Source: Malacoraja senta | Lineage: Eukaryota | Assembly (NCBI GenBank): GCA_038087875.1 | Contig: CM075990.1 | Location: forward strand, 13,022,001-13,086,000 | Length of the DNA: 64,000 bases | Reading direction: 5' to 3' | In this document: one piece after another, positions 650 through 56,896 of the stretch | Layout: each line of letters opens with the position of its first letter | How positions within the stretch are numbered: the first letter of the stretch is position 1 | Translations under genes and position numbers: made by a program | Notes under the pieces: model-generated | The model's database searches: none | The model's input: only the letters and a program-made list of their open reading frames with translations | What the model was told of the DNA's origin: nothing

Positions 650-1187
650 TGTGAAAAATATACATCTTTTAGATGCGCTGGGACGCATCCTCAGTGATGT
701 GATCTGGGTCATCGGGTGTTTGGGGTCTCACAACATCAGACACCCTCGCCCAGGCGACCCAGCTGGGGTTGATCAGGCCCCGACTTGCGTCCCAGCAGCA
801 TCCGCCCACGGATCAGCCATCTTAACAATTACTCTGCAGGGGTTGGAAGGGACTGGAGGGACTGGGCTCTGTGGGGTGAGTCCTGGCCGGGCTCCTCCTG
901 CGTCTCACCAGGTTCAAGGCCTGTATGTGCGTTGCACCTCTTTCTCCTTCTCCGAGCATTTCATTCTCGCCTGATGGATTTTTAGGCCACGGTGGTTCAT
1001 TAGTCCTTTCCGTAGCTTTATTGGGTGTCTTTCTCACGAAAGACACAGACTGGGGTGCTAACCCAGCCTGTCCCGGGTGCCGTCTTTCCGTGCCGTCAAC
1101 TGTCTCTCCAGTAGTCACCAAACTATTCTTGGTTGTCACCCAGTCTATTCCTAGGTGCCACTGGCTGAGCCAGACTTCAGTGTGAAG
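650..1187 (-). mobile_element. Internally deleted non-autonomous HERO-like element (5' part fused to C-terminus and 3' UTR)
   Basis: Minus strand encodes NHRGLKIHQARMKC, resembling the GLKIHQGKKKC zinc finger of the large element. It then jumps to KMADPWADAAGTQVGA*, resembling KRKDPCWAP*. The same structured 3' UTR follows. Ends are approximate. Confidence 0.75.
672..802 (-). ncRNA. Second copy of the HERO 3' hammerhead-like structure (G12 mutated to C)
   Basis: CUGAGGA at 694-688, GUC at 741-739, CAAA instead of GAAA at 722-719. Stems GGGUGU/ACACCC, UGAUGU/ACAUCA, GGGUC/GACCC, GGGACGCA/UGCGUCCC. Confidence 0.55.
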
Positions 1188-49486: not shown

Positions 49487-51102
49487 CTGCAGGAACAGGG
49501 GTAGGATCAGAACAAATGCAAGAAACGGCACAGTGCCTTCGACCAAATCATGCCCATGCTGTGCTTGGCATCAGCATTCAGCCATTCACATTCAAATCAA
49601 AACATCCCATTAATTTATCATCAATTTGTACGCATCAGCTAGAATCCCACACAAAAAAAAACTTTGCAGAATTTGATACATATTTGGAACGACTATGGCA
49701 CAGCTGGTAGAGCTGCTGCTTCATACAGCCCAGTGTCCCGGACTCAAACCTGACCTCTAGAGCTGTTAGTGTGGAGGTTGCTCATTCTCCCTGAGAATAT
49801 GTGTTTTCTCTTGGTGCTCTGGTGTCCCTCTCTCATGGCAAAGACGTGCAGATTAGGAGGTTAATCAGCCACTGTAAATTGACACTAGTTGTAGAGCGAA
49901 TGGCAGGATAAGGGGGTACTTCATGAGAGTATGGGGAAAGAAAATGGGATTAGAATAAATGGGCGCTTGATGCTCAGCATGGACTAGGTGGGCAGAACAG
50001 TCTTTATCTATGTATTAGGAGACTATGATTTAATATAATAGTAAGCTTTCAAATTACATTTCTACTTCAGAAAACGGTTCAGGTTGTTTGTTATTTTATT
50101 GTGTACCGAGGTACAAGGAAAAGCTTTATTTTGCACGCTATCCAATCAAATCAAATAATATTATACATAAATACAATCATGTCAAACTCAAGTACAATAG
50201 GTAGAGCAAAAGGGAAGAAATAGTGCAGAATATAGTTCTCAGCATTGTAATGCATCAGTTTCATAGACAAAGTCCAATGTCGGCAATGGGGTCGAGGTGA
50301 ATCGGACAGTACCCTAGCTTATGGAAGGACCATTCAGAAGCCTGATATCAGAGGGGAAGAAGCTGTTTCTGAGTCTAGTGGTGTGTACTTTCAAGCTCCT
50401 GCTCCTTTCCCCTGACAGGAACAGGGAGAAGGAATAACCGGGGTGGAACAAGTCTTTGATTACATTGGCTGCTTTTCCGAGGCAGCGTGAATGGTCAGTT
50501 GTTGTTCATTAGTTGATTCTCAGGTACTTGGGAGGAAATGTAATATTAAACAACAATTGGATTGAATTTCAGAGCAAGATTATGTCCTTTCAAGATCAAA
50601 CAATTCTGCTTCATAATTTGGCTGATGGAATAAATATGGAACAATACTACCCAGGTGCGTTTTTTCTCGTAAACCATGCTATTTAACAAAAGAATTTGCA
50701 AAGCTAATCCATTTCCTATTATGAAATGGCACCTGAGCAGTTTTGTCCCATGTTTCTTCCATTGGCCAAACTATGAAGCAGAGATGTGAATGTATGAATG
50801 AATGAATGCTACATTATTGTCACGTGTACCCAAGTACAGGGAAATAGTTTGTGTTGCAGACAATCTGGGCAGTACACAAGTGTGGCACGTTTTAGCGCCG
50901 ACAAAGTTACTAAACTACCGGACAGTCCTATTTACTGTCTGCCGATTCCCCATTGTCCTTGACCTTGAAATAGAATCAAATACACAGGACAAGATGTTAA
51001 GAAGTCCCTTGTGCCAATAGGTGGGGAGCATTTCACGACATTCGTTGATTGTTGAGAGTGGTAGACGCTCAACATCGGGGGGGGGTGGGGGGGGTAACCT
51101 TC

Positions 51103-51247
51103 AGGACAGTTGGGCACAGGACACATCATCAGTAGTGTACCCTTGCATCACTGGGTGTTTCGGCCTTTTAACACTATACACCCTCCACAAGGGCGGCCCG
51201 CTGCAGGATGATCAACCCTCAGCGCATGTCCCGTGTCAAACCGTCCC
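51103..51247 (-). ncRNA. Structured 3' UTR RNA of HERO with hammerhead-ribozyme core and kink-turn (candidate ribozyme)
   Basis: CUGAUGA at 51132-51126, GAAA at 51161-51158 and GUA at 51179-51177, each flanked by complementary stems. Covaries with the copy at 672-802. Confidence 0.6.
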
Positions 51248-51253
51248 AAAGAT

Positions 51254-54200
51254 TCACCCCGACATACTTGGGGCCCAGCATGGGTCTTTCCGCTTGAGCC
51301 AAATCCACCGGCTGCTTCTTTCAGCCGCCTCTGAGAGTGATCTTATGGTCTTCCGCAGAGCCTGACCGTGGATTCCAAGCTCCTTCAGCAGTCTGATGGT
51401 AGATGACGCAACAAATCCTCTGCATCCCACTTCAACTGGATAGACTTTGGTGTTCCAGCCACGCTGCGTTGCCTCTGCTGCAAGCTCTGCGTAGCGCAGC
51501 TTCTTACGCTCATAGGCCTCCTCAACAGAGTTCTCCCATGGAACTGTGAGCTCTATGATGTAAGCAGTCTTCTGTGAAGGGGACCAGAACACCAAGTCTG
51601 GCCTGAGGGTGGTGGAAGCAATTTCAGGTGGAAAAATTAGTTGTCGGCCGATGTCCGCCAGCATCCTCCAGTCACGGGCCCTGCATTGGCTTCCTTCTTC
51701 TGATCTGGTGGAAGGAAGTTTAGAAGTTTTCTGTCCTTCTCGGACAAAGGTTATTACCCTTAGGGGAGGGTTGCTTGCTCTCGGAGGCAAGGAGTTGGTC
51801 GCACACCGCCTGTTCTCAAGGGCTGATGCCAGGCTTTTTAGTACCTGATTATGCCGCCACGTGTATCTCCCTTGCGTGAGGCTGGTCTTGCAGCCTACCA
51901 TGATGTGTTTGAGGGTCGCTGGGGTTGGGCAGATGGCACAGGTTGGATCCTCGCCGTACCACTGATGGAGGTTCTTTGGTGATGGAAGCACGTCATATGT
52001 CGCTCTGATGATGAAGCTGATCTTGCTTGCTTCCATTTCCCATAGTTCTTTCCAGCTGATCTTCCTCCGCTCCACACCTTCCCACTGCATCCATTGCCCC
52101 TGCTTGGCAAGAGAGACCGCCTTTGCACTTCTTGCGGCCTCCTCCTGTCGCCGCACCTCCTCAACCACCAACGTCCTCCGCTCTGATGTTGTGGCCTTTC
52201 GCCAAGTTGGTTTACTTGTCGTAAGGCCAAAGCCTCCTCTTCCCTGCTGGACTTGCCCCACTATGTCTTTGTGCCTCAGGGCTGATGAAGCTTGCTGTAC
52301 TGCATCAGATGGTGTCCACTTCCGGCCAGTTGCTAGGGGCGGCGCAACAGCACTGATGATCTTGTCTCTAGAGTCCCTCAGTGTCATCTGGAGTCTTACT
52401 TTAGAACACTTATATTCCTCTGTTAGACTAGTGAGAGGTAGTTCCAGGACCCCTTTGCCATAGAGGCCGATGTTAGTTAGACATCGTGGGACACCGAGCC
52501 ATTTCTTCACGTATGAAGTTATGGTTCGCTCCATCTTCTCCACAGTTGTTATTGGGGCTTCATAAACGGTCAGTGGCCACATTGTCCGAGGAAGGAGTCC
52601 AAACTGTAGGCACCAGAGCTTCAGTTTCCCAGGCAGTAGGGTCTGATTGATGTTCTCCAGTCCATTGACAATTTCTTGCCTTAGTTGTTGCACCTGCTCT
52701 TTGTCCTTGAGACTTGCGTTATACCATCTTCCCAGGCTTTTAACTGGCTGCTCAGACACTGTTGGTATTGGGTCGTCACCAATACAGAACCTTGTGTCTC
52801 TAAGCACCCCCTTGACTATGGAGATGCTTCGAGATTTACTTGGTTTGATTTTCATTCGGGCCCACTTGATGTTCTCCTGCAGCTTTCCAAGTAGCCGCTT
52901 GGTGCATGCTGCAGTAGTGGTTAGTGTTGTCATGTCGTCCATGTATGCCCTGATGGGTGGCAGACGGAGCCCAGCCCTGGTTCGTTCACCGCCCACCACC
53001 CATTTTGAGGCCCTGATGATGACTTCCATGGCCATTGTAAAGGCCAAGGGTGAGACTGTGCAGCCTGCCATGATGCCTACTTCCAAGCGCTGCCATGTTG
53101 TACTGAAGTCAGCTGTTGTGAAGCACAGCTGCAGGTCTTGGTAATATTTCTTGACCAGTGTGGTGATGAGCTCTGGTACATGGAAAAAGGCAAAAGATTC
53201 CCAAAGGAGTTCATGGGGAACTGAACCAAATGCATTGGCCAGATCGAGGAAGATCACATGTAGGTCTCTCTTGTCCTTCTTAGCTGCTTGGATCTGGTGC
53301 CAGATCATGCTTGTATGCTCCAAGCAACCCGAAAATCCTGGAATTCCTGCTTTCTGTACAGATGTATCAATGTACTTGTTTGTTACCAGATAGGTGGACA
53401 GCCTTTGTGATACAATGCTAAAAAAGATTTTTCCTCGACGTTGAGGAGACATATTGGCCGGAATTGGCTGATGTCTGACGAATCCTTTTCTTTAGGTATT
53501 AGCACGCCGCCGGCCCTTCGCCAAGCCTTAGGTATTGTTTGCTTCTTCCACACCACCCTCATGAGCTTCCATAGAAAGCGTAACACATCTGGTGCGTTCT
53601 TATAGAGCTTGTATGGTACTCCGTTTGGCCCCGGAGCTGAAGCTGCTCTTGCTCGCCGGACCGTGTTCTCCACCTCTTTCCATCTCGGAGGGCTGGTGTC
53701 CATGTTGAATTCAGGTGGTTGAATAGGCGGGATGTCATGTGGGATGACCAACTGCTCATGCCTTTTCGTGTCTTTGTGGGCCTTTTCCAGGTGTTCCTCC
53801 AATTCCTGTTTTGATGTTTTCAAAGTTCCACTTTTTTCCTTTGCGAAGAGGTCTTTGATGAACTTGAAAGGGTCTTTATAGAACCGTGTTCTTGTGTGTT
53901 CTTTCTTCTTGCGAAGTTTCCTCAAGTTCTCTGCTTTTCGCAAGGTTGCCAATCGGTTCTTGATGTCCTCTTGGAGTAGCATGAGACCTTCTCTCTCTGC
54001 GTCAGTTGCTTTTTTCCATTGCTTTTTCAACTGTCTCCTCTCTCTGATTAGCCTCTCGATCTCCTGCTGCCTCCTGGACTTGATTGGTGTTGGTAATTTC
54101 TTTCCACCTCTCCCTTTACTCACCCCAAACCGTTCTTCTCCATAGCTGTAGATTGTGTTGCCCATCCTTTCAAGCTTTTCCACTGCTGTGCCCGTTTGTT

Positions 54201-54618
54201 GCTCCAAGATATGTATAAGGTCACTGTTGACCGTCTCCCACTCTTTCTTTTCAACAGCCTTGGGCCATTTCACTCCAGGTTTGTGCCCTTTGATCTTTCC
54301 CTCCAATGGAGGTCTTTGTAGTTGTTGCGTGGGCTCCTCCACCGGCATTTCTGTGCTTGTATCACCCTCTTCAGTGACATGGGTGCTGATGCTCTGCGAA
54401 CTTTGGTTTGTGTCCCGTCGCTGTGCTTCACTCGACTGATTTGACTGGTTGCTTCGTAAGAAGTACTGGTCAATGCGAGGCCCATGTTTCTGCTCTCTCA
54501 AGCACTTTTTCTTCCCTTGGTGGATCTTCAAGCCCTTCACTGATGTTAATTTCTCCCAACCACAGATGCACACCTGAAGTTTGTGTCCCGCAGCTGTTGT
54601 GGATGTCTCATGTGCCAT
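51254..54618 (-). pseudogene. HERO ORF (about 1121 aa if repaired) broken by a single 1-nt deletion at about 53433
   Basis: ORFs 54618-53383 and 53452-51254 overlap. Adding one G (GAGGAAAAATC to GAGGGAAAAATC) restores the conserved RPICLLNVEGKIFF. No other stops or shifts in 3.4 kb. Confidence 0.85.
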
Positions 54619-56896
54619 GAATATGAATGAGAAAGAATCTGGCCAGAAACCAACCTATGTCCCATATCATGGTACCTAACAGTTTCTAAATGAAGGAAAA
54701 GAATTAGGAGTAGGTTAACATCTCGTCTTTGCATTCAGAGGTACAATATGCCGGTTTCCTGTGTAATTATACACACAGCCAGCTCCTGCATACTGGCATT
54801 GCTGCTCTAGACAGAGCGAGCAGCTTCAATATCAGGTACTTCTTCGACAAGAATAACACACTTCAGACTCCCATTGACTCACTAATGGCAAAGAGTGGGA
54901 ACTGATGGGCCAAATACTCCTGGACTAATTACTAAATCAGAAAAATCCTTTGTGCAAGAATTAAAATCAAAAGTCCCCGCATCACCCGGCGTACTACATT
55001 AGAAATAACATATTCTTTAAATCAGCGGTGCTTTTGAGCAAATCCTAAAAGCCTGGGGGAAAGATTTCTGATAATTGCTTGCTTTAACATTTTGTGACTG
55101 AATTGAGTGGATGTCTCAGGAGAAGACGATGAATTTGTCTCAACTCAAGTTTTAATGAGGTTGACCAGTGGTATTTAAATAGTATCATTAAAAATGTGCT
55201 TCTAATTCATAACCTTTAAGATTATTCCTTTGATGGATGAAATGTGGTTTATTTGAGTCATCTAAGCCACGATGTGCGTTTTGTGCAGTGCGTTTGAAGG
55301 CATCATGCAAGTTTGGATGGAAAGTGCCCAAATCTCTCCAACACTGGGGCAGTGGAGTGGGGTTTCACATCAACTCATAACTTGATCTATGATTCACTGA
55401 AGAATCGACAACAAATGTTACAATTAATCAACACCTCCATTATCGTTGAACCATGTTACACCATGTCCACAGTAGTAAAACTTGGTCTGTTTTTACAACC
55501 ATGAATTGTGTGTTCCTAACCATCACACGTAATTTTATTCAGGGATGAGAATAAAAGAGTGAAATAAAGTACCTATCCAACATCAAAAATTCTGCAGCCC
55601 CCTTTTTGTTCTCACACTATATTAAGGTCCGATCTCTCAGGTTCCCTCTCGCCTATACTATTACAGGTGACTGCGCTAGGAACAAGCAGCACCCATTCAA
55701 ATCAAAGCAAATTTTCCACTTCAATGGAACTGGTGTGTAAAATTTGAGTGATAGATCTATCTAAACGATCATTGTCAAGAAGTATTTTCATCTTACACCG
55801 CACGACACCTGAAAGAAGTGTGGATCTGTGCAACTTAGTTCACTGGGAAATACATGTCTATCTGATCCGGAAGGTTGCTGTTCAAGACAACATTCCAGGA
55901 TTTTGGCACATTCCTATCAAATCCGTAGCGCAGTAGGAATGCTGCAATGTCAGAGATTCTGCCTTTGGATTAGACATTAAAAAGTCCTCCTATTTGTTCA
56001 GGTGGACGAGATTCCACAGCGCTATCTGGAGGTCAATAACGGATTCTTCCAATGCCCTTGATCAGTAGCCTTCCTTCTAATGAGCCATTAAAAAAAGATC
56101 ATGTCATCATTCATCTCTACTTGTTGAGAAAAATGAGAGATGATACCTCTAGTTTCCCCCTCCCCCGACTCTCAGTCTCAGGAAAGGTCTCAAACCAAAA
56201 CACCACCTATTCCTTTTCACCAGAGATGCTGCCTGACCAGCTCCAGCATTTTGTGTCTATCTTCAAGTCAAGTCAAGAGAGTTTATTGTCATGTGTCCCT
56301 GATAGGACAATGAAATTCTTGCTTGCTGCAGCACAACAGAGTATTGTAAACAAAAATGCAGAACAGTTCAGTTCAATCTTATTGATCTTACTGAAGCGTG
56401 AAATATTCTAATGTGGATTGATTCGGGTATATGCTGAGAGAATGATTCCCCTTGTGAGGGTATCAAGAACCAGGAGGTGTAGTTAAAGAATATGTCATTT
56501 AAGACATGAGGAGGAAGGATTTCTCTTTCAGAGGGTGATGGCTCTTTGGAAATCTCTACCTCAGAGCTCTGGAGGCAGTGTTAATGAAAATATTCAAGAT
56601 GGAGTTAAGGGGTATGGTGAAAAAGTAGGAATGCAATGTTGAGGCCGAGATTAGATCAGCCATGATATTACTGAATGGGTGGAAAAACCTGAAAGAACCA
56701 GTTGGCCCTGTCCTGTTTGTGGAATGTTTCCATCCACTGGTTAGTACAGTTCAAGTAATTTACTGTGTGAAATGTTTGTGAGACACGACAACTTAAATGA
56801 TGTTTCAGTCCAGTAGATCCATTCATTCTGCTTTCTGGAGTCAATTTACAATGGAATTAAGTTGCCTATGTGACACGACAGTGCCATTGCACTTAC

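What the first reader, a model, noticed from the sequence alone, without database searches (positions are those of the whole stretch)
51103..51247. Hammerhead core in a non-standard pseudoknotted topology, closed by a kink-turn, in the 3' UTR of a HERO retrotransposon
Seen on the minus strand just after the ORF stop: every hammerhead core element with its flanking helix. Stem III is GGGUGU(51183-78)/ACACCC(51158-53), enclosing GAAA(51161-58). The cleavage triplet is GUA (predicted cut at 51177/51176). Stem I is UAGUGU(51176-71)/ACACUA(51138-33), directly followed by CUGAUGA(51132-26). Stem II is GGCC(51198-95)/GGCC(51165-62). The strand order is [III-UH-I]...[II-GAAA-III]...[I-CUGAUGA], which is none of the three circular permutations (types I, II, III), so it would be a pseudoknot. 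An extra helix GCCCUUGUG(51194-86)/UGCAAGGGU(51147-39) links the far end of stem III to stems I and II. The joint matches the kink-turn consensus: CCC, AGU bulge, GA on one strand, and GA, GGG on the other. That supplies the sharp bend the topology needs. A9 runs into a closing helix (UGUGUCCU/GGGACAUG) and a hairpin instead of directly into G10.1. Established: RLE elements such as R2 carry 5' HDV-like ribozymes and Penelope elements carry hammerheads. I do not know of this architecture described for HERO 3' UTRs, and descriptor searches for types I-III would miss it. Inference: either a new hammerhead variant involved in 3'-end processing or re-ligation, or a catalytically silent hammerhead-like fold recognised by the RT. 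The integrated copy keeps sequence on both sides of the predicted cut, so cleavage cannot be complete and irreversible.
Basis: partly seen in the sequence, partly recalled or inferred. Interest (0 to 1): 0.92.

Follow-up and report, generated by a model that had tools for sequence, protein, structure and literature searches.

The report
Rewired hammerhead ribozyme in retrotransposon tail
A jumping gene present in hundreds of copies in this animal genome, and its relatives elsewhere, carry just after their protein-coding part a conserved RNA fold with every hallmark of the self-cutting hammerhead ribozyme, wired in an order that I found described nowhere.

Summary

It is not chance. A covariance model built only on the nested helices P2 and III found the module just 3' of the ORF in 58 of 78 related loci, and in 55 of the 63 with at least 147 nt after the stop.

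The two pseudoknotted stems were not in the model, yet they covary:
- Stem I is 84.5% paired, with double changes at 6 of 6 pairs.
- Stem II is 82.5-98% paired.
- Slid controls give 31-42%.

The hammerhead core letters are near-invariant and H17 is C/U/A, G once. A kink-turn signature, the closing helix P0 and hairpin P1 are also conserved.

The S-G-C block order is already published as the "type SGC" hammerhead, which cleaves in vitro (Eckert et al. 2023). Here block C is split: stem II's 5' strand lies upstream, and A9/G10.1 is bridged by P0 and P1.

Catalysis is untested. RNA-seq at about 10x depth and 452 genomic copies show no sign of a cut. It is a new variant of a known kind in a new host, an RLE retrotransposon that forms head-to-tail tandems.

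The parts
51254..51256 (-). Stop codon (TGA) of the RT/RLE open reading frame. The ribozyme domain begins about 20 nt downstream.
   Evidence: Pfam RVT_1 E 7.3e-19
51225..51235 (-). P0 5' strand, the closing helix. It pairs with 51125-51115.
   Evidence: 11 consecutive pairs starting directly after A9; in the MFE; in relatives, 41 of 56 have at least 7 bp
51199..51224 (-). P1 hairpin between P0 and stem II, with apical loop UUGAUCAU containing the palindrome UGAUCA
51195..51198 (-). Stem II 5' strand (positions 10.1-10.4, GGCC). It is detached from A9 and lies upstream of the cleavage-site block.
   Evidence: 82.5-98% paired with double changes. The alternative partner after A9 is rejected: 47.3% paired against 46.0% in shuffles.
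51186..51194 (-). P2 5' strand. P2 is the helix that bridges the far ends of stems I and II.
   Evidence: 58.8% paired on A4 because the register shifts between families; per-sequence parse
51184..51185 (-). GA of the non-bulged strand of the kink-turn
   Evidence: G in 43 and A in 50 of 58 distinct rows (one a gap)
51178..51183 (-). Stem III 5' strand (GGGUGU, ending in U16.1)
   Evidence: 92.9% paired; 5 of 6 pairs have double changes
51177..51177 (-). H17 (A). The predicted scissile bond lies between 51177 and 51176.
   Evidence: H17 is C 25, U 20, A 11, G 1, gap 1 among 58 rows. The cut itself was not tested.
51171..51176 (-). Stem I 5' strand (UAGUGU)
   Evidence: 84.5% paired; 6 of 6 pairs have double changes, on an alignment not fitted to this stem
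51166..51170 (-). Short A-rich linker (UAAAA) joining the far end of stem I directly to the far end of stem II
   Evidence: 2-6 nt in all but one of the 35 parsed relatives; 25 nt in L062, probably a mis-parse
51162..51165 (-). Stem II 3' strand (GGCC, 11.4-11.1)
51158..51161 (-). G12 A13 A14 A15.1 (GAAA)
   Evidence: G 53 of 57, A 57 of 57, A 57 of 57, A 58 of 58
51153..51158 (-). Stem III 3' strand (ACACCC)
51148..51152 (-). Kink-turn bulged strand: AGU loop followed by GA
   Evidence: G in 48 and A in 50 of 58 distinct rows; third loop letter U in 39
51139..51147 (-). P2 3' strand (UGCAAGGGU)
51133..51138 (-). Stem I 3' strand (ACACUA)
51126..51132 (-). C3-A9 core strand CUGAUGA
   Evidence: C 54, U 56, G 57, A 55, N7 free (U 32, C 15, G 5, A 5), G 55, A 57, each of 57
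51115..51125 (-). P0 3' strand. It starts with no linker after A9.
51077..51094 (-). C8-A-C9 tract. The second C run varies from 9 to 14 between copies.
50986..51008 (-). Hairpin near the 3' terminus, GGGAC...GUCC(U), with UAACAUC in the loop. The same word recurs near the 3' end in several relatives.
   Evidence: read by eye, no statistics
50972..50973 (-). 3' end of the element (...GAUUC(U)). Copies diverge after it or run into the 5' end of the next copy.
   Evidence: (loose ends)
680..793 (-). Second, decayed copy of the same domain from another subfamily. It has G12 changed to C, and compensatory differences in stems I, II, P0 and P1.
   Evidence: 32 bits, E 8.4e-07

Best explanation
Window 51235-51115 (minus strand) is a conserved, non-circularly permuted hammerhead ribozyme domain. 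It sits directly after the stop codon of an RT plus restriction-like-endonuclease (R2-superfamily, HERO-like) non-LTR retrotransposon.

Shown here:
- Strand order: P0 - P1 hairpin - stem II 5' strand - P2 - (GA) - stem III 5' strand - H17 - stem I 5' strand - 2-6 nt linker - stem II 3' strand - GAAA - stem III 3' strand - (NNU GA) - P2' - stem I 3' strand - CUGANGA - P0'.
- All core letters of the hammerhead and all three stems are conserved and covary.
- The far ends of stems I and II are tied together by the short linker and by P2.
- P2 joins stem III through a kink-turn-type internal loop.
- The core strand is broken between A9 and G10.1. There the chain leaves into P0 and returns through P1, without linker nucleotides, making a four-way-junction-like crossover.

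Inferred:
- The domain folds into the normal hammerhead active site and cuts between A51177 and U51176.
- The two products would stay held together by P0, II, P2 and III, about 30 bp in the window copy (11 + 4 + 9 + 6). The reaction should therefore sit near a cleavage/ligation equilibrium rather than release products. That fits the intact site in all integrated copies.
- My best guess for the role is based on the head-to-tail arrays. There the domain lies between one unit's ORF and the next unit's 5' UTR. I propose that it processes multi-unit or read-through transcripts into unit-length RNA and can reseal them, possibly into circles. I give this roughly 0.35 on its own.
For: Sequence and fold.

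Conservation:
- 58 of 78 related loci carry the module, and 55 of the 63 with enough downstream sequence. Every hit is on the ORF strand, with a median of 27.5 nt from the stop to position 10.1.
- Core letters are near-invariant; N7 is free and H17 is not G.
- 38 of 58 rows have all 11 fixed core letters.

Covariation:
- The alignment was not fitted to stems I and II. Stem I is 84.5% paired, II 82.5-98%, III 92.9%; slid controls give 31-42%; 0 of 500 shuffles reach the percentage paired or the covariation score.
- Raw MAFFT alignments show the same.
- Stem II uses the upstream strand, not the strand after A9.

Other conserved parts:
- K-turn letters.
- P0 begins at offset 0 after A9 in 35 of the 41 cases with at least 7 bp, out of 56 examined.
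- P1 hairpins covary.

Precedent for activity: type-SGC hammerheads have the same S-G-C order, the same I-to-II linker and the same bridging helix. They cleave in vitro at the predicted site; five candidates cleaved, and in one of them (SGC-3) all four stems were validated by compensatory mutants (PMC10085705, sections 13, 14 and 18).

Tandem context:
- 115 exact 3'-end-to-5'-end junctions against 438 exact 3' ends in the own genome.
- In 12 of 13 related loci examined, the N-terminal part of an ORF lies downstream of the domain.
Against: - No cleavage was observed by any means here.
- RNA-seq raw reads (four runs, about 10 reads deep at the site, both orientations) cross 51177/51176 without a pile-up of ends.
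- Of 452 genomic copies with the exact 26-mer that starts at the cut, none has unrelated sequence just upstream. Run-off on cleaved RNA would leave such sequence.
- Rfam 15 hammerhead models give no match at E up to 10, as expected for a permuted order.
- No natural hammerhead with the chain broken at A9/G10.1 is known to me, so activity with this break is unproven.
- 20 of 58 rows carry one or more deviations from the core. At least 3 of these (L065, L070, L075) are alignment slips by the parse; most of the rest look like decayed copies.
- 8 of 63 loci lack the module.
- The proposed role in tandem processing rests on position only. Template jumping by the RT explains tandems equally well.
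Confidence: 0.58

Rival explanations
1. Catalytically silent scaffold. The hammerhead-like fold is kept as a rigid three-dimensional platform that the element's own RT, or a host k-turn protein, recognises right after translation ends. That would give cis-preference for target-primed reverse transcription. The core letters would be conserved because the fold needs them, not because it cuts.
For: - The domain starts a median of 27.5 nt after the stop. In the short families the stop lies inside P1 and the P0 5' strand is coding.
- No trace of cleavage was seen in reads or in genomic copies.
- The heavily cross-braced design would not release products.
- R2 proteins are known to bind a pseudoknotted 3' UTR (abstract of PMC12222951).
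Against: - The pattern of free and fixed positions (N7 any base, H17 anything but G, G10.1-C11.1, A15.1-U16.1) is the pattern known from hammerhead catalysis.
- The closest published relatives with the same order are active.
- A separate conserved hairpin near the 3' terminus could serve as the RT handle (read by eye).
Confidence: 0.3
2. A structure that acts on the ribosome or on nucleases rather than on itself, for example a termination-coupled switch or an exonuclease-resistant knot protecting the 3' part of the RNA.
For: The domain overlaps the ORF end in many families and has a closed, pseudoknotted topology.
Against: Nothing in these roles requires the full hammerhead core.
Confidence: 0.06
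3. Chance co-occurrence of CUGAUGA, GAAA and GUA with short complementary words inside an otherwise unrelated structured UTR, or a box C/D-like k-turn RNA.
For: - Weak Rfam matches to archaeal C/D box models (sR52, 17.7 bits, E 1.3).
- The relaxed topology gives a lone reader much freedom.
Against: - Covariation in all helices, with 0 of 500 shuffles reaching the percentage paired or the covariation score.
- 58 related loci carry the module at the same place.
- The C/D matches are far below the gathering score of 50.
Confidence: 0.01

Closest known systems
Type-SGC hammerhead ribozymes (HRIMA-1 motif and type-SGC variants; Eckert, Friedrich, Weinberg and Weinberg, Nucleic Acids Res 2023, PMC10085705; abstract, sections 13, 14, 15 and 18 and one supplement search read)
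   Same: - The block order is cleavage site, then GAAA, then CUGAnGA.
- Stem I is joined to stem II by a linker of about 3 nt.
- An extra helix ties the other sides of stems I and II together (our P2).
- That helix is connected to the far end of stem III.
- There are two pseudoknots in the core, and the same conserved core letters.
   Different: - In type SGC, the authors assumed block C (stem I 3' strand - CUGAnGA - stem II 5' strand) to be uninterruptible, and it is contiguous. Here the stem II 5' strand lies upstream of the cleavage block, and A9/G10.1 is bridged by P0 and P1.
- The 5' and 3' ends of type SGC are here joined by a kink-turn-type loop.
- The hosts differ: metatranscriptome RNAs found near hairpin ribozymes, against the 3' UTR of an animal retrotransposon.
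- Neither 'retrotransposon' (other than in a reference) nor 'kink-turn' occurs in the main text or the held supplement.
- Their activity is shown; ours is not.
Classical hammerheads of types I, II and III (three-way junction)
   Same: The core letters, the three stems, the A15.1-U16.1 and G10.1-C11.1 pairs, the H17 rule, and stems I and II held side by side.
   Different: - The order here is not a circular permutation of the three-way junction.
- The loop-loop contact is replaced by covalent ties.
- There are extra helices P0, P1 and P2.
- Rfam models find no match.
Hammerheads of Penelope-like elements and retrozymes (PMC4209133 and PMC7229834: titles and abstracts seen in search listings only)
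   Same: A hammerhead carried by retroelements that occur as tandem or partly tandem copies, placed between units.
   Different: - Those are type I or minimal forms, in elements with a GIY-YIG nuclease or in non-autonomous elements.
- This one is a permuted, much larger domain in an autonomous RLE element.
HDV-like ribozymes at the 5' end of R2 and other non-LTR elements (PMC3774820, abstract in search listing)
   Same: A self-cleaving RNA in an RLE-type retrotransposon that would free the unit from a co-transcript.
   Different: - It is a different ribozyme class and sits at the other end of the element.
- No HDV-like match was found across a unit junction of this family.
Kink-turn (Kt-7, box C/D, U4 snRNA type; consensus recalled, not from a call)
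   Same: A canonical stem, a 3-nt bulge often ending in U, and tandem G.A/A.G pairs on both strands.
   Different: Only the sequence signature was tested; neither the bend nor protein binding was tested. About a fifth of rows have C, U or A in place of the G on the non-bulged strand.

Membership tests
Hammerhead ribozyme (class) | Conserved C3 U4 G5 A6 N7 G8 A9 | tested here: met
   C 54, U 56, G 57, A 55, N7 any base, G 55, A 57, each of 57 rows with a letter
Hammerhead ribozyme (class) | Conserved G12 A13 A14 followed by A15.1 paired to U16.1 | tested here: met
   G 53, A 57, A 57 of 57; A15.1 58 of 58; U-A pair in 52 of 58
Hammerhead ribozyme (class) | Cleavage-site nucleotide H17 (not G) after U16.1 | tested here: met
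   C 25, U 20, A 11, G 1, gap 1
Hammerhead ribozyme (class) | Stems I, II and III abut the core strands and covary | tested here: met
   I 84.5%, II 82.5-98%, III 92.9% paired, with double changes in 6 of 6, 3 of 4 and 5 of 6 pairs
Hammerhead ribozyme (class) | Site-specific self-cleavage giving 2',3'-cyclic phosphate and 5'-OH | not testable with these tools
   Indirect looks only: no end pile-up in reads; 0 of 452 copies broken at the site
Hammerhead types I/II/III | Unknotted three-way junction and a match to Rfam hammerhead models | tested here: not met
   The strand order gives crossing helices; no Rfam match at E up to 10
Type-SGC hammerhead (Eckert et al. 2023) | Block order S, G, C, with a short stem I to stem II linker and a helix bridging I and II | tested here: met
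   definition from PMC10085705 section 13
Type-SGC hammerhead (Eckert et al. 2023) | Block C uninterrupted: the stem II 5' strand directly follows CUGAnGA | tested here: not met
   The strand after A9 pairs with 11.x in 47.3% of cells, against 46.0% in shuffles; the 10.1-11.1 position pairs in 5 of 56. The true partner lies upstream.
Kink-turn | 3-nt bulge flanked by a canonical stem and tandem G.A/A.G pairs | tested here: met
   GA on the non-bulged strand (G 43, A 50) and on the bulged strand (G 48, A 50), each of 58 distinct rows with 1-3 gaps per column. Sequence signature only.
Kink-turn | Sharp bend, and binding by L7Ae/15.5K-type proteins | not testable with these tools
   No tool for this.
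RLE-type non-LTR retrotransposon (R2 superfamily) | Reverse transcriptase followed by a C-terminal zinc-knuckle and a PD..(D/E)..K nuclease | tested here: met
   RVT_1 E 7.3e-19. C..C..H..C and RPD...E.T.P motifs read in the translation and invariant in alignment A1. The nuclease motif assignment is by eye.
HERO clade | Placement within HERO in an RT phylogeny with named reference elements | not tested
   No named references were available. Consistent features: non-specific insertion sites and homologues in fishes, lamprey and amphioxus. HERO is described as largely non-specific in PMC4640811 (passage).

The most novel reading that the evidence does not exclude
This is a seventh connectivity of the hammerhead, and the first natural one in which the catalytic-core strand itself is interrupted, between A9 and G10.1, by a four-way crossover. 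The fold is closed into a cage by a kink-turn. It is carried by a whole clade of autonomous animal retrotransposons. There it would act mainly as a ligase/nickase that turns multi-unit transcripts into unit-length, possibly circular, templates. Reverse transcription around such templates would generate the head-to-tail arrays typical of these elements. A palindromic P1 loop that pairs two RNAs may help.
Probability: 0.2. Interest if true: 0.92.

Novelty: new variant of a known kind. Interest (0 to 1): 0.82.

Why it matters
The 2023 description of non-circular hammerhead permutations rested on the assumption that three sequence blocks cannot be interrupted, which gives six possible orders. This domain, supported by covariation in 58 loci, breaks one of those blocks. 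The space of natural ribozyme topologies is therefore wider, and descriptor or covariance searches built on that assumption would miss it.

It also places a hammerhead-type domain in autonomous RLE (R2-superfamily) retrotransposons of animals. So far these are known for 5' HDV-like ribozymes. The domain sits at a spot that links the end of translation, the 3' UTR and the junction between tandem units.

If the domain is active, it offers three things:
- a natural, topologically locked hammerhead for studying the cleavage/ligation balance;
- a kink-turn solution to the geometric puzzle that Eckert et al. noted for type SGC;
- a testable route to the origin of tandem retrotransposon arrays.

Tried and rejected
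- Rfam scans of the region and of two unit junctions found no hammerhead or HDV-like match at E up to 10, only sub-threshold C/D box hits.
- The viral-contig scan found no relative.
Other subfamilies in this genome were therefore not surveyed, apart from the second copy in the window.
- Sequencing runs: no RNA holder was listed. Four raw-read RNA runs of the same species label were laid. Coverage was low, with no place where molecules begin or end and no joints.
- Search for copies 5'-truncated exactly at the predicted cut: 0 matches, against 452 copies of the downstream 26-mer.
- Terminal overlaps of 49 whole metagenome contigs, as a sign of circular assembly: none.
- Constrained MFE folding to score P0 and P1 automatically gave inconsistent parses. 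It was replaced by a direct count of consecutive pairs with shuffles.
- A strict no-mismatch descriptor parse recovered only 35 of 70 UTRs, and several of those were mis-parsed. It was replaced by the covariance model.
- The pairwise alignment of the window's upstream region to a family 5' end was uninformative.
- The alternative stem II, formed by the strand after A9 as in true type SGC, was rejected.
- Earlier findings of this scan: three look-ups, nothing found.
- Literature: ten searches (two more failed on syntax) found no paper describing a hammerhead in HERO or other RLE 3' UTRs. The library holds only CC-licensed PMC papers and bioRxiv, so a description in a subscription journal or in Repbase/Dfam notes cannot be excluded.
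Full report
**1. The observation**

On the minus strand, the ORF of a retrotransposon ends with TGA at 51256-51254. Its product has a reverse-transcriptase domain (RVT_1, E 7.3e-19). It also has a C-terminal zinc-knuckle and a PD..E..K-type nuclease region (read; invariant residues).

- stem III, GGGUGU with ACACCC;
- GAAA;
- G-U-A with the predicted cut at 51177|51176;
- stem I, UAGUGU with ACACUA, followed directly by CUGAUGA;
- stem II, GGCC 51198-95 with GGCC 51165-62;
- the extra helix GCCCUUGUG with UGCAAGGGU;
- the GA / AGU-GA internal loop;
- the closing helix after A9.

The 166-nt stretch folds far better than shuffles (-70.8 kcal/mol, z -4.62, 0 of 200). Its nested minimum-energy structure already contains the closing helix (P0), a hairpin (P1), the extra helix (P2) and stem III. 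Rfam 15 finds no hammerhead, HDV-like or other ribozyme family at E up to 10, only sub-threshold C/D-box matches.

**2. The element**

The 221-nt query around the site has at least 40 copies at 100% identity in the window's own 1.94-Gb genome.
- The 26-mer that starts at the predicted cut occurs 452 times.
- A 29-mer at the 3' end occurs 438 times.
- The element ends at ...GAUUC(U), about 50973/50972. After that point copies diverge into unrelated flanks or run straight into the 5' end of another copy.
- The exact 3'-end-to-5'-end junction occurs 115 times. About a quarter of 3' ends are therefore followed by another unit, with a period of about 3955 nt.
- Flanks differ between copies. This fits a non-site-specific element, as the HERO clade is described (passage in PMC4640811).
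- I could not test the HERO assignment itself.

**3. Relatives**

A protein search with the C-terminal 346 residues found 326 relatives. Those with a source name come from fishes, a lamprey and amphioxus. Full lengths are about 1170-1180 aa.

A scan of metagenome contigs with an alignment of these proteins returned 78 loci; the viral collection returned none. I extracted the sequence after the inferred stop in 69 of them.

The same module is visible by eye in relatives at 38-82% identity over the last 148 residues. All helices differ in sequence but stay complementary, for example:
- stem III: GGUGU/ACACC, GACGU/ACGUC, GAUGU/ACAUC;
- stem I: UAGUGU/ACACUA, GUGGGC/GCCCAC, CCAGGA/UCCUGG;
- stem II: GGCC/GGCC, GAUGA/UCAUC, GCUCC/GGAGC, GUUGA/UCAAC.

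**4. Statistics**

On raw MAFFT alignments of 19 sequences, the four helices pair in 77.7% and 80.2% of cells. With the partner slid they pair in 33-48%. No shuffle out of 500 reaches any of the five observed measures.

I then built a covariance model that contains only the nested helices P2 and III. I searched the window and all 78 loci, 310 kb on both strands.
- It gave 60 matches at E up to 0.01.
- 58 loci had one match each, always on the ORF strand just after the ORF.
- The window site scored 78.9 bits.
- A second, decayed copy lies at window 680-762 (32 bits).
- Of the 63 loci with at least 147 nt after the stop, 55 have the module and 8 do not.

Results on the resulting alignment (58 distinct rows):

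| Helix | Cells paired | Pairs with changes on both sides | In the model? |
|---|---|---|---|
| Stem I | 84.5% | 6 of 6 | no |
| Stem II | 82.5-98% | 3 of 4 | no |
| Stem III | 92.9% | 5 of 6 | yes |
| P2 | 58.8% | 8 of 8 | yes |

- P2 scores low because its register shifts by one between families with 4- and 5-bp stem II. The per-sequence parses show 3-12 bp.
- The whole structure is 78.1% paired against 31-42% slid. The covariation score is 0.476 against at most 0.119, and 0 of 500 shuffles reach either the percentage paired or the covariation score.
- The sequences are related, so the shuffle control overstates significance. The slid control keeps relatedness.

**5. The core**

Counts among the 58 rows:
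- C3 54, U4 56, G5 57, A6 55, G8 55, A9 57, G12 53, A13 57, A14 57 (each of the 57 rows with a letter), A15.1 58 and U16.1 52 of 58.
- N7 is free: U 32, C 15, G 5, A 5.
- H17 is C 25, U 20, A 11, G 1, gap 1.
- Positions 10.1-11.1 are G-C in 42 rows and G-U in 8.

This is the conservation pattern of the hammerhead. 38 of 58 rows have all eleven fixed letters and a non-G H17. Among the 20 others, most carry a single deviation, one is cut off by the contig end, and at least three are alignment slips judged by the parse.

**6. Extra parts**

- The internal loop between P2 and stem III has GA on the strand before stem III (G 43, A 50 of the 58 distinct rows). After stem III there is a 2-3-nt bulge, usually ending in U, followed by GA (G 48, A 50). 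This is the kink-turn sequence signature (consensus recalled).
- Directly after A9 a helix P0 forms with a segment upstream. 41 of 56 sequences have at least 7 consecutive pairs starting within 0-2 nt of A9, 35 of them at offset 0. The mean is 8.8 pairs against 5.6 for shuffled 3' strands, and 21 exceed all 50 shuffles.
- Between the P0 5' strand and position 10.1 lie 16-27 nt that form a hairpin P1. Its stem sequences differ completely between families.
- In the short-UTR families the stop codon lies inside P1 and the P0 5' strand is coding.
- The median distance from the stop to position 10.1 is 27.5 nt.

**7. Topology**

The order is P0 - P1 - II(5') - P2 - GA - III(5') - H17 - I(5') - linker - II(3') - GAAA - III(3') - NNU GA - P2' - I(3') - CUGANGA - P0'.
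- Stems I and II are tied at their far ends by the 2-6-nt linker and by P2 abutting both. That is where natural hammerheads make their loop-loop contact.
- P2 returns to the far end of stem III through the kink-turn.
- The chain is broken between A9 and G10.1. It leaves into P0 and comes back through P1 without linker nucleotides.
- I read this as a four-way crossover that could leave stem II stacked on the A9.G12 pair as usual (inference).
- From established hammerhead structures (recalled), the metal site at A9/G10.1 uses the phosphate 5' of A9 and N7 of G10.1. Neither is removed by this break.

**8. What is known**

Ten literature searches found no hammerhead described in HERO or other RLE 3' UTRs. 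They did find Eckert et al. 2023 (PMC10085705; abstract, sections 13, 14, 15 and 18 read, one supplement search).

That paper does the following:
- It divides the hammerhead into blocks S, G and C.
- It assumes the blocks cannot be interrupted.
- It reports natural "type SGC" ribozymes with a roughly 3-nt stem I to stem II linker and a helix bridging I and II.
- It shows site-specific cleavage in vitro and compensatory rescue of all four helices.
- It notes as unexplained that the bridging helix connects directly to the far end of stem III.

Our domain has the same S-G-C order, linker and bridging helix. Its stem II 5' strand, however, is not after CUGANGA. The strand after A9 pairs with 11.x no better than shuffles (47.3% against 46.0%, 142 of 500 shuffles as high; 10.1-11.1 pairs in 5 of 56).

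It is therefore a circular permutation of type SGC, opened inside block C and closed at the old ends by a kink-turn. That form lies outside the six orders considered. A November 2026 paper still cites only that work and a fungal-virus study for "alternative permutations" (passage in PMC13725137).

**9. Is it active?**

This was not shown.

Against activity, or neutral:
- Four RNA runs of the same species label give about 10 reads over the site, in both orientations. There is no pile-up of ends and no dip.
- None of the 452 copies carries unrelated sequence just upstream of the cut.
- 3'-terminal words are about as frequent as the ribozyme word (438 against 452). Few copies are therefore truncated inside the tail.

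For activity:
- The catalytic pattern of conservation holds over deep divergence.
- The nearest published relatives are active.

The two halves would remain joined by about 30 bp in the window copy (P0 11, II 4, P2 9, III 6). I therefore expect a nick-and-reseal equilibrium rather than product release (inference). That is consistent with the intact site in integrated copies and with the reads.

**10. Role (inference)**

Tandem arrangement is not peculiar to this genome. In 12 of 13 related loci examined, the C-terminal ORF part, the ribozyme domain and a short tail are followed by the N-terminal part of another ORF copy. A 5'-UTR word shared with the window family follows the domain in 9 of 49 loci.

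The domain thus lies between units, as hammerheads do in Penelope-like elements, retrozymes and satellite transcripts. My preferred reading is that it processes multi-unit or read-through transcripts. Because the ends stay paired, it could also reseal them, possibly into circles. I give that about 0.35.

The main rival, at 0.3, is a silent scaffold for the RT or a k-turn protein at the point where translation ends. Template jumping by the RT explains the tandems without any ribozyme.

**11. Verdict**

- The fold is real and conserved (about 0.9).
- It belongs to the hammerhead class by core and stems.
- It fails the membership tests for types I-III and for type SGC as defined.
- It is best filed as a new variant of a known kind, in a new host.
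- Interest is high for ribozyme and transposon specialists. The decisive experiment, in vitro transcription with core and compensatory mutants, is simple.

Noticed in passing
own genome; L048-L091; junction just beyond window 50972: Head-to-tail tandem arrays are a trait of this retrotransposon group. In the own genome, 115 exact 3'-end-to-5'-end junctions stand against 438 exact 3' ends, with a period of about 3955 nt and arrays of 2-3 units. In 12 of 13 related metagenome loci, the N-terminal part of an ORF lies downstream of the ribozyme domain.
   Followed up: partly
window 51209-51216 (P1 loop); P1 of L034-L105: The apical loop of P1 often holds a self-complementary word that changes between families while staying palindromic (UGAUCA, UGGCCA, UCAUGA, UGUACA, UUGGCCAA, CUGAUCAG). 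19 of 30 distinct P1 segments have a palindrome of at least 6 nt, against 9.4 expected from shuffles. This is a possible kissing-loop dimerisation site.
   Followed up: partly
window 680-793, minus strand: A second, decayed copy of the same domain from another subfamily (32 bits). G12 is changed to C, and stems I, II, P0 and P1 differ in sequence but stay complementary.
   Followed up: partly
window 51077-51094: The C8-A-Cn tract downstream of the domain varies in length (second run 9-14 C) among otherwise identical copies.
   Followed up: no
window 50986-51008; 3' tails of L031, L034, L038, L040, L041, L073, L080, L100: A hairpin near the 3' terminus, GGGA...GUCC, has a loop containing UAACAUC or a near variant. 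It recurs in several relatives. More distant families instead end with a small CAGU...ACUGUAU hairpin 15-30 nt after P0'. It is possibly the RT handle at the 3' end. Seen by eye only.
   Followed up: no
window 51254-54654, minus strand: The window copy reads as two overlapping frames (423 aa and 745 aa, overlap 53383-53491). Relatives have one product of about 1170-1180 aa. The copy also lacks the family's 5'-terminal word (0 matches with up to 3 mismatches). It is probably a frameshifted and 5'-incomplete copy.
   Followed up: partly
window 50972-50973 (loose ends): In the RNA reads that run past the 3' end, 33 continue into an element 5' end and at least 19 into other sequence, while 26% of genomic 3' ends are joined to a 5' end. 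This may mean preferential expression of arrays or circular RNA. The numbers are small and the reads are not independent.
   Followed up: no
L048-L105: In the short-UTR families the stop codon lies inside the P1 hairpin and the P0 5' strand is the last coding stretch. A terminating ribosome would unwind part of the domain.
   Followed up: no
5' ends of units: L001 after the junction; L048-L068: The 5' UTR begins with repeated words of the form CCAGUGAC...GGAAAGAC, shared between distant families. Rfam found nothing there.
   Followed up: no
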